64,000 nt of DNA from Escherichia coli (GTDB lineage Bacteria > Pseudomonadota > Gammaproteobacteria > Enterobacterales > Enterobacteriaceae). The stretch lies in the NCBI RefSeq assembly GCF_044324785.1, contig NZ_CP172127.1. The stretch is one strand, 5' to 3'. The translations under genes and the position numbers were made by a program. The notes below the pieces were generated by a model. It ran no database searches. It worked only from the letters and a program-made list of their open reading frames with translations, and was not told the origin of the DNA. Positions 3,125-4,420 of this stretch are shown here, one piece after another. Position 1 is the first letter of the stretch. Each line of letters begins with the position of its first letter.

Positions 3125-4420
3125 TGATTAATGGTGGGCTTGCTTAAATCTATCCGGCGTCTCTGTGGACAAGGAGACCCGCGCCTCGATGAGTTCCGCA
3201 CCTGATAATCCTAAAAAGACCCTCGGCTTCAGTGAGCCATTTTTTCTGTCAGGTTTTTAATCAGGTCTATTTGCCGTTCATGTCATCAATAATCAGTCTT
3301 CGCAAAACCAGACAGGTAACTTGTATCTTATTTTTTAAAATAAGCTAATTGAGTTTTGTCAGTATCTATATCAGGCCTGATATTCTTTGTGCAGAGCAGT
3401 GATTGCCCAGGCTATTCGGGCCAGTTTATTTGCCAGAGCGCAGGCGACAATATTTGAATGCTTATTGTCGAGTTGCTTTTGAACCCATTCAGCAACTCTG
3501 CCCTATTGATGCTCCAGCCGCATCATGAACGAGCGGGCGTACAGAACAAGTAACCGACTCGTTTGCTGATCCCCAGCAGCATTGATTTACCACCGGTACT
3601 GTATTGTCGGGGAACAAGTCCTGTGGATGCTGCAAAATCCCTACTGCACGAAAATTGTTTACCATCACCAAGCTGGGATGATAGCAGGCTGGCCGTCATC
3701 GGCCCAACACCGGGGATTGTCATGATTCGTTGCACAGTAGCGTCAGCTTTGATTGACTGGTTTAACTCTGATTCCAGTTCTGTTATTTGCTCAATACGAT
3801 AAAGATAGTGAGCATGTAATTTCATCAGCAAGCGACTCAGATATTCAGGTATTTCGTGTTCAGCTAACGCCAGAGATAACCATTTTATTGCGGCATCCCC
3901 TGTCGGCAGTCTGATTCCAAATTCCAGCAAGAAACCGTGGATCTGGTTGTTTTTTTTCACCTTATCTCTGATGAGCGATTCTCTGACCCGATGTAATGCC
4001 CTCATTGCCTGCTGGGTTTCTGTTCTGGGCTGGACAAAACGCATTGATGGTCGTGAAGCCGCTTTGCATATGGCTTCTGCATCAATAAAATCATTCTTAT
4101 TACCTTTGACAAACGGACGCACGAATTACGGAGAGATAAGTTTTTCTTCATGACCGATGTCGCTGATACGCCGGGCCATAAAATGCGTACCAGCGCAGGC
4201 TTCCATAACAACTACTGAGGATGGACATGTTGCCAGAAACTGCATCAGCTTCGTACGCGTAAACTTTTTACGCAAAAGCGCATTGCCAGATTTATCTTGA
4301 CAATGAATATGGAAAGAATGTTTACCGAGATCGATACCAATAAGCGCAACGTTTTACATGATGGTGCCCTCTAAAATAACCCACCCTGTCAGCGTACCGC
4401 TCACAGGGTGGGGGTGACCA
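3125..4420 (-). mobile_element. IS110-family element nested between orfA and orfB of an IS3-family element; boundaries approximate
   Basis: About 1.3 kb segment separating IS3-family orfA (ends 3120) from orfB (resumes about 4408); contains a DEDD-type recombinase gene and a 250-bp ORF-free tail; no terminal inverted repeats seen. Confidence 0.6.
3376..4356 (-). pseudogene. IS110-family (DEDD) transposase/recombinase, inactivated
   Basis: N-terminus NVALIGIDLGKHSFHIHCQD...MEACAGTHFMARR, central RIMTIPGVGPMTA, C-terminal ALANKLARIAWA; ATG followed directly by TAA, CAA-to-TAA after KLISP, frameshift near 3520, late in-frame stop. Confidence 0.75.

What the first reader, a model, noticed from the sequence alone, without database searches (positions are those of the whole stretch)
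3125..4420. IS110-family element nested in an IS3-family transposase gene, with a 250-bp ORF-free tail that may encode a guide-type structured RNA
A DEDD-type recombinase gene (3376..4356, minus strand) sits exactly between orfA and orfB of an IS3-family element and has no terminal inverted repeats, as expected for the IS110 family. The recombinase is dead (ATG-TAA at codon 2, CAA-to-TAA after KLISP, frameshift near 3520). The 5' flank is only about 60 bp and holds a hairpin (CCCACCCTGT...ACAGGGTGGG, 4380..4412), while the 3' flank (3125..3375) is 250 bp, ORF-free and contains stem-loops (GGCGTCTC...GAGAC at about 3157..3186; CTTATTTT/AAAATAAG at 3327..3344). IS110-family elements have been reported to carry a structured noncoding RNA in their noncoding end that base-pairs with target and donor DNA (bridge or seek RNA); a long 3' tail fits the IS1111-like layout. 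Even with a dead recombinase the RNA gene could be intact and trans-acting. The exact RNA boundaries and fold cannot be determined by eye.
Basis: partly seen in the sequence, partly recalled or inferred. Interest (0 to 1): 0.65.

Follow-up and report, generated by a model that had tools for sequence, protein, structure and literature searches.

The report
Dead IS1111-type element with guide RNA
This is a decayed copy of a known kind of RNA-guided jumping gene, whose guide-RNA region is still almost intact and spells out the exact site in another jumping gene (an IS3-family element) where it sits; it is a clear example of a known mechanism, not a new one.

Summary
Window 3090..4428 (minus strand) is a 1339-bp IS1111-group element of the IS110 family. 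It sits in an A-run at the orfA/orfB junction of an IS3-family transposase gene in an E. coli chromosome.

Its transposase is dead: three stop codons and a 16-bp deletion.

The 3' non-coding end (about 3312..3090) is homologous to the non-coding ends of 31 relatives, from E. coli to Cupriavidus. It folds into a conserved structure: 45 pairs, 16 with compensatory changes, and none of 500 shuffles reached the observed values on four of five measures.

Two variable loop strands flank a conserved hairpin:
- CAGAAAAAA (3248..3240) is complementary to the right flank.
- GGGUCUUUUU (3222..3213) equals the left flank and runs across the insertion point.

Across 28 lineages each element's guides fit its own target best (none of 100,000 permutations matched this). 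Sister copies 93-94% identical carry guide changes of one to a few bases and sit in different targets. This is the seekRNA/bridge-RNA layout of Siddiquee 2024 and Durrant 2024.

Whether the RNA is made or active here was not tested. No promoter was found, and the -35 box of the inferred circle-junction promoter is mutated.

The parts
3090..4428 (-). Whole IS1111-group element, 1339 bp (1338 bp if base 4428 belongs to the IS3 A-run)
   Evidence: Empty IS3 copy L003 reads ATCATAAAAAAAGACCC where the window has ATCATAAAAAA[TCTATGG...CCATCTCATT]AGACCC. An intact sister copy is 95% identical. The end motifs TAATGAGATGGTCAC and GTGACCATAGA are conserved in relatives.
4410..4421 (-). Left subterminal inverted repeat (ATGGTCACCCCC), preceded by the 7-nt terminal extension TAATGAG (4428..4422)
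   Evidence: the repeat finder pair I9, 12 nt, 100% complementary. These are the only two copies in the window. Coordinates.
3093..3104 (-). Right subterminal inverted repeat, followed by the 3-nt extension AGA (3092..3090)
4380..4412 (-). Hairpin in the left end, between the inverted repeat and the ribosome-binding site
   Evidence: Arms 15 nt, 93% complementary. A hairpin forms at the same place in most of 34 relatives with different sequences. Function not determined.
3371..4359 (-). Transposase pseudogene (DEDD/RuvC-like domain plus Transposase_20 domain), inactivated by three stop codons and a 16-bp deletion
   Evidence: Alignment with intact copy L002. The intact protein matches PF01548 and PF02371 and NCBIfam NF033542 'IS110 family RNA-guided transposase' at 341 bits. 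Lesion coordinates.
3313..3370 (-). Non-conserved spacer after the stop codon; includes the palindrome at 3327-3344
   Evidence: Relatives do not align here.
3090..3312 (-). Conserved non-coding end = predicted long seekRNA/bridge RNA region plus the right end
   Evidence: BLAST conservation at 75-87% in thousands of plasmids. 32-sequence alignment A4. Independent covariance model R2: 233.6 bits, E = 1.6e-58, full length.
3285..3309 (-). 5' arm of the long-range outer helix
   Evidence: Pairs with 3128..3105 (pair I1; helices 1-2; single-sequence fold).
3105..3128 (-). 3' arm of the outer helix. It also holds the inferred -35 box (3114..3109, TAGCAA here, TTGCAA in all 31 relatives).
   Evidence: The promoter reading is an inference from the sequence.
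3258..3267 (-). 5' strand of the stem that closes the target-binding internal loop
   Evidence: Helix 3: 6 of 9 pairs have compensatory changes.
3240..3248 (-). 'T' guide CAGAAAAAA, complementary to the right flank TTTTTTATG (8 of 9, one G.A mismatch)
3225..3238 (-). Conserved hairpin GGCUCACUGAAGCC between the two guides
   Evidence: Helix 5: 100% paired, 2 pairs with compensatory changes.
3213..3222 (-). 'B' guide GGGUCUUUUU, identical to the target top strand GGGTC|TTTTT (10 of 10), spanning the insertion point
3200..3212 (-). 3' strand of the target-loop stems (AGG + AUUAUCAGG)
   Evidence: Helices 3 and 4.
3143..3199 (-). Second module. Largely conserved strands GGAACUCAUCGA (3197..3186; its CUCAU core near-invariant) and GGAUAGAUUUAAG (3155..3143; its AUAGA core invariant) flank a covarying hairpin (3185..3156). 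This is a candidate donor-binding loop.
   Evidence: Helices 6-8: all 4 pairs of helix 8 have compensatory changes. CUCAU is complementary to ATGAG of the left end, and AUAGAU equals the right end plus the first base of the left end. The assignment is by analogy only.
2504..3089 (+). Upstream part of the host IS3-family transposase gene (HTH and leucine-zipper part), ending in the A-run
4429..5312 (+). Downstream (catalytic) part of the host IS3-family transposase gene, itself degraded

Best explanation
The element is a fossil copy of an IS1111-group (IS110-family) insertion sequence. Elements of this group move as an excised circle and are integrated by a DEDD recombinase steered by an RNA encoded in the element's own 3' non-coding end.

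In this copy the RNA region (about 3312..3090, minus strand) keeps the family structure:
- An outer helix closes the whole region.
- A first internal loop carries two strands, CAGAAAAAA and GGGUCUUUUU. These would pair with opposite DNA strands of the target GGGTC|TTTTTTATG, which is the reverse complement of the A-run ATCATAAAAAA(A)GACCC in the IS3-family gene.
- A second module has largely conserved strands whose core bases (CUCAU, AUAGA) match the element's own ends.

The element therefore lies where its own RNA points.

Shown here: homology, conserved structure with compensatory changes, and guide-to-target correspondence across lineages.

Inferred from published work on ISEc11, ISPa11, ISKpn4 and IS621: that an RNA is made, binds the recombinase and directs strand exchange. 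Also inferred: that circle formation creates a TTGCAA-17 nt-GATAAT promoter across the joined ends.

In this particular copy the system is most likely inactive. The recombinase is dead, no promoter is seen on the coding strand, and the -35 box is mutated.
For: Identity and boundaries:
- 100% identical to E. coli chromosomes that annotate IS110 and IS3 pseudogenes here.
- An intact sister copy is 95% identical.
- An empty IS3 site defines the ends, with no duplication.
- 12-bp subterminal inverted repeats.

Protein family: PF01548 + PF02371 and NF033542 'IS110 family RNA-guided transposase'. The GLVPRQYSTG motif is present.

RNA:
- The non-coding end is conserved at 75-87% across relatives.
- The consensus fold has 45 pairs, 97.2% of cells paired, and 16 pairs with compensatory changes. 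None of 500 shuffles reached the observed values on four of five measures (14 of 500 on further pair types). Slid partners gave 34-44% paired.
- A model built without the window and its four closest relatives scores 233.6 bits, E = 1.6e-58, full length, and is the only hit in 64 kb.

Guides:
- Mean match to own target is 16.5 nt against 9.9 nt for other targets across 28 lineages. None of 100,000 permutations reached this, and the own target ranks first in 24 of 28.
- Sisters 93-94% identical carry GGGCCUUUUU/CAGAGAAAA and sit at GGGCC|TTTTCC and GAGCC|TTTTTC.
- The order (top-strand match 5' of bottom-strand match, overlapping at the insertion point) is the one published for IS1111-type seekRNAs (PMC11187229).
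Against: - No RNA evidence exists for this locus.
- Rfam 15 gave no relevant hit.
- The T guide has one mismatch to the IS3 flank.
- The donor-binding assignment rests on 5-6 nt matches between largely conserved segments, so it cannot be tested by covariation.
- The simple scan found no promoter-like site on the coding strand.
- Base 3113 (A here, T in all 31 relatives) breaks a conserved G.U pair and changes the inferred -35 box TTGCAA to TAGCAA.
- The shared insertion site in chromosome and plasmid copies may be one old event rather than repeated targeting. The flanks diverge about as much as the element does.
Confidence: 0.88

Rival explanations
1. The conserved 3' end acts only as DNA (recombinase-binding sites and end recognition). 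The apparent RNA structure is incidental.
For: The last 40 nt or so contain the inverted repeat and near-invariant sequence. Helix 7 and most of helix 2 never vary, so they say nothing about pairing.
Against: Sixteen pairs show compensatory changes, concentrated in helices 3, 5 and 8. The two variable segments track target sequence on opposite strands, which a protein-binding DNA site does not explain. Published co-purification of RNA from the non-coding end with IS1111-type transposases (PMC11187229).
Confidence: 0.04
2. The RNA region is an inert relic. It is a guide RNA gene by descent, but this copy is neither transcribed nor able to act, in cis or in trans.
For: - The transposase is dead.
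- There is no promoter-like site on the minus strand.
- The element is antisense to the IS3 gene, so read-through from the IS3 promoter would not make the sense RNA.
- The -35 box is mutated and the outer-helix pair is broken at 3113.
- It is the only copy in the window, and the listed identical records show one place each.
Against: - The non-coding end has fewer substitutions than the gene (5 of 208 against 45 of 989, plus a 16-bp deletion).
- The guides are unchanged.
- Two of the five changes keep pairing as G.U.
- Both ends and both target flanks are intact, so a sister transposase could in principle mobilise it.
Confidence: 0.7
3. The segment 3125..3375 is ordinary IS3-family sequence (the orfA-orfB overlap).
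For: None.
Against: Uninterrupted IS3 copies go straight from ATCATAAAAAAA to GACCCGGG with a continuous reading frame. The segment travels with the IS110-family gene into unrelated contexts.
Confidence: 0.01
4. The hairpin plus T-run at 3239..3213 is simply the intrinsic terminator of the transposase gene.
For: The consensus scan flags it as terminator-like on the minus strand.
Against: The T-rich strand varies with the target. It is UAUUUUCU in IS5075, which targets Tn21-type repeats, and CUGUUAUC in elements that target TTAAC. It also lies inside a larger conserved helix.
Confidence: 0.05

Closest known systems
IS1111-family seekRNA elements (ISEc11, ISPa11, ISKpn4; Siddiquee et al. 2024, PMC11187229)
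   Same: - DEDD transposase of about 334 aa.
- Subterminal inverted repeats, with a 7-nt left extension (as published) and a 3-nt right extension.
- No target duplication.
- Long non-coding region downstream of the gene.
[quoted passage not shown]
- Natural redirection by guide changes.
- A promoter assembled at the circle junction.
   Different: - A different lineage, in the IS4321/IS5075/IS1328 branch (68-70% aa identity).
- A different target.
- No experiment on this element.
- This copy is a pseudogene.
IS4321 / IS5075 (Partridge and Hall 2003, cited in PMC11208160)
   Same: - Homologous transposase (68-69% aa).
- Near-identical end motifs.
- The same RNA scaffold.
- They also target another mobile element, the 38-bp terminal repeats of Tn21-family transposons.
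   Different: The guide strands read AAAACGGAA and UAUUUUC, matching TTCCGTTTT and TATT|TTC, instead of the IS3 A-run.
IS621 bridge RNA (Durrant et al. 2024, PMC11208160; Hiraizumi et al. 2024)
   Same: A two-module RNA with a target-binding internal loop, whose two strands pair with opposite DNA strands around the crossover point, and a second module that matches the element's ends.
   Different: - In IS621 the RNA is in the left (5') end; here it is in the right end.
- IS621 has a CT core present in both donor and target. Here at most one shared T can be assigned.
- The donor module here is unproven.
ISEc21 (IS110 group; Siddiquee et al. 2024)
   Same: An RNA-guided insertion sequence whose natural target lies inside IS3-family transposase genes. 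A 97%-identical copy lies in the same window.
   Different: [quoted passage not shown]

Membership tests
IS1111 group of the IS110 family (the element) | DEDD/RuvC-like N-terminal domain plus IS110-type C-terminal domain | tested here: met
   The intact sister protein has PF01548 (residues 7-146) and PF02371 (209-288) and matches NF033542 at 341 bits against a cut-off of 140. The window gene aligns to it at 95% nucleotide identity but is broken.
IS1111 group of the IS110 family (the element) | C-terminal GL-P----S(t)G motif | tested here: met
   GLVPRQYSTG is present in the sister protein and in the window ORF 3523..4122. The motif definition is from PMC11187229.
IS1111 group of the IS110 family (the element) | Subterminal inverted repeats of 7-17 bp | tested here: met
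   Perfect 12-bp repeat at 3093-3104 and 4410-4421.
IS1111 group of the IS110 family (the element) | Short terminal extensions beyond the repeats (7 nt on the left, as published; 3 nt on the right, as seen here), and no target duplication | tested here: met
   The right extension is AGA. The left extension is TAATGAG or AATGAG, depending on whether the target had A6 or A7. Relatives that target TTAAC favour 7 nt. No duplication.
IS1111 group of the IS110 family (the element) | The longer non-coding region lies downstream of the transposase gene | tested here: met
   281 nt downstream (3370..3090) against 69 nt upstream (4428..4360).
IS1111 group of the IS110 family (the element) | A promoter is formed at the circle junction | tested here: inconclusive
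   Joining the ends gives TTGCAA-17 nt-GATAAT in relatives, read from the sequences. In the window the -35 box is TAGCAA. No circle was observed.
seekRNA / bridge RNA | Two RNA segments complementary to opposite strands of the target, overlapping at the insertion point, with the top-strand match on the 5' side | tested here: met
   CAGAAAAAA matches 8 of 9 and GGGUCUUUUU matches 10 of 10. The order is as published.
seekRNA / bridge RNA | Guide sequences change with the target among relatives | tested here: met
   28 lineages; none of 100,000 permutations matched the observed fit. Sisters 93-94% identical have guide changes of one to a few bases and different targets.
seekRNA / bridge RNA | Conserved secondary structure around the guides | tested here: met
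seekRNA / bridge RNA | A donor-binding segment that matches the element's ends | tested here: inconclusive
   Matches of 5-6 nt (CUCAU, AUAGAU) between largely conserved segments. No informative variation.
seekRNA / bridge RNA | The RNA is transcribed, binds the transposase and is required for excision and insertion | not testable with these tools
   Needs RNA-seq or a northern blot, RNP purification and transposition assays.
seekRNA / bridge RNA | Match to a curated RNA family model | tested here: not met
   cmscan of 2800-4700 against Rfam 15 at E <= 10 gave only chance-level hits to unrelated families. This may reflect the library's content rather than the sequence.

The most novel reading that the evidence does not exclude
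The dead copy is still a working non-autonomous element. It keeps intact ends, both target flanks and a near-intact guide RNA, so a sister transposase arriving on a plasmid (intact copies 95% identical are on E. coli F-type plasmids) could use the chromosomal RNA to excise it. Alternatively, that RNA could steer incoming copies into IS3-family A-runs, so that a fossil element biases where its live relatives insert.
Probability: 0.12. Interest if true: 0.45.

Novelty: new member of a known kind. Interest (0 to 1): 0.28.

Why it matters
It adds nothing new in principle. RNA-guided targeting by IS1111/IS110 elements was published in 2024, and bridge RNAs were predicted for 93% of catalogued IS1111 elements.

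Its value is as a worked natural example:
- The guide strands can be read directly from the sequence.
- They explain why the element sits in the A-run of an IS3-family transposase gene, so one mobile element disables another.
- Sister copies 93-94% identical show retargeting by guide changes of one to a few bases.

The 28-lineage table of guides and targets for the IS4321/IS5075/IS1328 branch could help define pairing rules and offsets for this branch. It also shows that annotation pipelines label such loci only as 'IS110 family transposase' pseudogenes and leave the RNA gene unannotated.

Tried and rejected
- **Rfam 15 scan** of 2800-4700 at E <= 10: only chance hits to snoRNA, miRNA and viral families. 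No curated bridge or seekRNA family matched.
- **Other copies in the window**: neither model R1 nor R2 found a second copy. The repeat ATGGTCACCCCC occurs only at the two ends. No second unoccupied target-like site GGGTCTTTTTTATG, allowing 2 mismatches.
- **Naming the element**: NCBI names for the intact protein cluster are only 'IS110 family transposase'. ISSfl8 was considered from the identity matrix in the supplement of PMC11187229 and from two papers, but could not be verified. Partridge and Hall 2003 is not held.
- **A 'core' dinucleotide as in IS621**: TT on both sides fits most relatives but not the window (CT on the left), and it conflicts with the Tn21-repeat target recalled from memory. 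At most one shared T can be assigned.
- **Does the base after AUAGAUU in the second module track the third base of the right flank?** It fits the IS5075 type and L004. It fails for L005, L032, L066, L068, L081 and L088, so it is not claimed.
- **RNAalifold on the left end** failed to call the hairpin because of alignment gaps. Single-sequence folds show it.
- **Promoter scan**: nothing on the coding strand, and the counts are not above shuffles.

Full report
**Where the window comes from.** The stretch 3080-4440 is 100% identical to many complete E. coli chromosomes. Fifty-eight records match at 99% or more. In NZ_CP033635.1 the region is annotated as a run of insertion-sequence pseudogenes next to amiC and iha. 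It shows an 'IS110 family transposase (frameshifted; internal stop)' flanked on both sides by pieces of an 'IS3 family transposase'.

**Checking the observation: the gene.** The minus-strand gene runs from ATG 4359..4357 to TGA 3373..3371. I aligned it with an intact copy on plasmid pBCE049-1 (L002, 95% identical, 334-aa ORF). The window gene carries:
- CAA>TAA at codon 2 (4356..4354);
- CAA>TAA after LISP (4128..4126);
- a 16-bp deletion between 3559 and 3558;
- CAG>TAG at 3505..3503.

So 'dead recombinase' is correct. The 'frameshift near 3520' is really the 16-bp deletion at about 3559. The intact protein has the DEDD_Tnp_IS110 and Transposase_20 domains. It matches NCBIfam NF033542, 'IS110 family RNA-guided transposase', at 341 bits.

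**Checking the observation: the ends.** The statement that the element has no terminal inverted repeats is wrong. ATGGTCACCCCC at 3093-3104 is perfectly complementary to 4410-4421, and these are the only two copies in 64 kb.

An uninterrupted copy of the same IS3-family element (L003) reads ...GGAAATCATAAAAAAAGACCCGGGC.... The window reads ...ATCATAAAAAA|TCTATGGTCACC...GGTGACCATCTCATT|AGACCCGGGC.... The insert is therefore 3090..4427, or ..4428 if the target had six A's. There is no target duplication. The repeats are subterminal, with 3 nt beyond the right one and 6-7 nt beyond the left one. That is the IS1111-group architecture described in PMC11187229 and PMC11208160.

Relatives that insert at TTAAC sites fit their guides better if the left extension is 7 nt, TAATGAG. 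In the uninterrupted IS3 copy the reading frame is continuous across the A-run. With six A's it would be the usual A-AAA-AAG -1 frameshift arrangement.

**The 3' non-coding end is conserved.** The 281 nt between the stop codon and the right end are not IS3 sequence, because the empty site lacks them. BLAST with this stretch alone finds thousands of plasmids at 75-87% identity, but only over its last 225 nt or so. I fetched relatives from:
- plasmids (L004-L008, including IS5075);
- 80 loci in bacterial genomes, from Xenorhabdus, Photorhabdus, Serratia and Yersinia to Cupriavidus, Paraburkholderia and Pseudomonas, at 64-92% protein identity.

The end motifs TAATGAGATGGTCAC and GTGACCATAGA are almost invariant in them.

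**The 3' end has a conserved structure.** A 32-sequence alignment of the non-coding end (A4) gives an RNAalifold consensus of 45 pairs:
- a long-range outer helix (3309..3285 with 3128..3105);
- a stem closing an internal loop (3267..3258 with 3212..3200);
- a small hairpin, GGCUCACUGAAGCC (3238..3225);
- a second module with a covarying hairpin (3185..3156).

Counting pairs on the alignment gave 97.2% of cells paired and 16 pairs with changes on both sides (68 cells). None of 500 shuffles reached the observed values on four of five measures (14 of 500 on further pair types). Sliding the 3' partners by 1-3 columns gave only 34-44% paired. The window sequence alone folds into the same outline (-55.7 kcal/mol, z = -2.1).

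A covariance model built without the window and its four closest relatives (A5, R2) finds window 3090-3318 (minus strand) at 233.6 bits, E = 1.6e-58, full length. It finds nothing else in the window. Rfam 15 gave no relevant hit.

**The guides.** The two strands of the first internal loop are the variable part of the alignment, and they follow the flanking DNA.
- In the window the 5' strand is CAGAAAAAA (3248..3240). The reverse complement of the right flank is CATAAAAAA, so 8 of 9 bases fit.
- The 3' strand is GGGUCUUUUU (3222..3213). The target top strand is GGGTC|TTTTT, so 10 of 10 fit, running across the insertion point.

The same rule holds in relatives:

| Element | 5' strand and its match | 3' strand and its match |
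|---|---|---|
| IS5075 | AAAACGGAA with TTCCGTTTT | UAUUUUC with TATT\|TTC |
| TTAAC-targeting elements | AAAGGUUAAC with GTTAACCTTT | |

Over 28 lineages with distinct guides, the summed longest match to the own target averages 16.5 nt, against 9.9 nt for other targets. None of 100,000 permutations reached the observed value. The own target ranks first in 24 of 28 lineages, including the window.

Sister elements 93-94% identical to the window copy carry GGGCCUUUUU/CAGAGAAAA and lie at GGGCC|TTTTCC and GAGCC|TTTTTC. A third carries AUAGCCUUUU and lies at CCAGCC|TTTG.

The order of the two segments and their overlap at the insertion point are what Siddiquee et al. report for IS1111-type seekRNAs.

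**Second module.** The segments GGAACUCAUCGA (3197..3186) and GGAUAGAUUUAAG (3155..3143) are largely conserved; the cores CUCAU and AUAGA are near-invariant and invariant. CUCAU is complementary to ATGAG of the left end. AUAGAU equals the last five bases of the right end plus the first base of the left end, which is the circle junction.

Their order and polarity mirror those of the target guides, which suggests a donor-binding loop as in IS621. Because neither the RNA cores nor the ends vary, this cannot be tested here. It remains an inference.

**Expression and activity of this copy.**
- Joining the right and left ends gives TTGCAA-17 nt-GATAAT in the relatives. This is the kind of junction promoter reported for ISEc11. 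It is my reading of the sequences.
- In the window the -35 box is TAGCAA. Base 3113 is A here and T in all 31 other sequences. The same change breaks a conserved G.U pair of the outer helix.
- A simple scan finds no promoter-like site on the coding strand.
- The element is antisense to the IS3 gene.
- Compared with the intact sister, the conserved RNA region has 5 substitutions in 208 nt. Two of them keep pairing as G.U, and the guides are untouched. The gene has 45 substitutions in 989 nt plus the deletion.

The RNA gene is therefore nearly intact in sequence. Nothing indicates that it is made or used here.

**Comparison with what is known.** This is the seekRNA/bridge-RNA system of IS1111-group elements (PMC11187229; PMC11208160).
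- The closest named relatives are IS4321/IS5075 and IS1328, at 68-70% protein identity.
- NCBI gives the protein only the generic family name. An ISfinder name could not be checked.
- Targeting of one mobile element by another is also known: IS4321/IS5075 target Tn21 repeats, and ISEc21 targets IS3-family DDE codons.

I rate it a new member of a known kind, of low to moderate interest.

**What is left open.**
- Whether the shared IS3 insertion in chromosomes and plasmids is one event or repeated targeting.
- The exact left boundary (one base).
- The RNA ends.
- The role of the second module and of the conserved left-end hairpin.
- Whether a sister transposase could still use or mobilise this copy.

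Noticed in passing
window about 8800-10104, minus strand (ORFs 9415..9963 and 8887..9312), next to an IS3-family fragment at 8673..8831: A second RNA-guided insertion sequence lies here. 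It is 97% identical to ISEc21 (IS110 group), the element whose upstream seekRNA was studied experimentally and which targets IS3-family DDE codons. Its gene is broken, but the upstream non-coding region of about 141 nt (9964-10104) appears complete.
   Followed up: partly
window 5370-5841, minus strand: Another N-terminal fragment of an IS110-family transposase (MNIVFLGIDLDKNIF...), with stop codons, directly after the end of the host IS3 element. Neither model found a matching RNA region there.
   Followed up: partly
It is therefore a conserved structure between the left repeat and the ribosome-binding site. Its function is unknown.
   Followed up: partly
L009, L023, L039, L044, L057, L059, L080, L086 (left flanks): Many relatives sit exactly between a GC-rich hairpin and its T-run (for example GCCCCGCGATGCGGGGC|TTTTTTATGG). 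That means they sit on terminator-like sequences. Their 3' guide covers the descending stem plus the T's. In Photorhabdus thracensis nine copies share only GGTT|TTTTTAT.
   Followed up: no
alignment A4 columns 186-196 and the right flanks of all lineages: Every target but one starts with TT right after the element. The conserved RNA segment AUAGAUU matches the right end plus TT in the integrated state (7-8 nt) better than it matches the circle junction (6 nt). The next base follows the flank in IS5075-type elements and L004 but not in six others.
   Followed up: partly
L003 1690-1700 compared with window 3082-3089 and 4428-4431: Uninterrupted copies of the host IS3-family element have seven A's, which puts the two halves of the transposase in one continuous frame. 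The window junctions are also compatible with an A6 target, which is the usual -1 frameshift form. Which form was hit is unresolved.
   Followed up: partly
window 3224-3239, minus strand: The consensus terminator scan flags the guide-loop hairpin plus the U-rich 3' guide as an intrinsic terminator. If real, transcription might end inside the guide RNA. More likely this is a by-product of a T-rich target.
   Followed up: no
window 1594-2500 and 1-10700 generally: The finding lies in a graveyard of insertion-sequence remnants around an intact amiC (6764..8023). It includes a second IS3-family pseudogene, an IS21 istB fragment at 9885..10631 and IS630 copies. iha lies a few kb away in the matching RefSeq record.
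   Followed up: no
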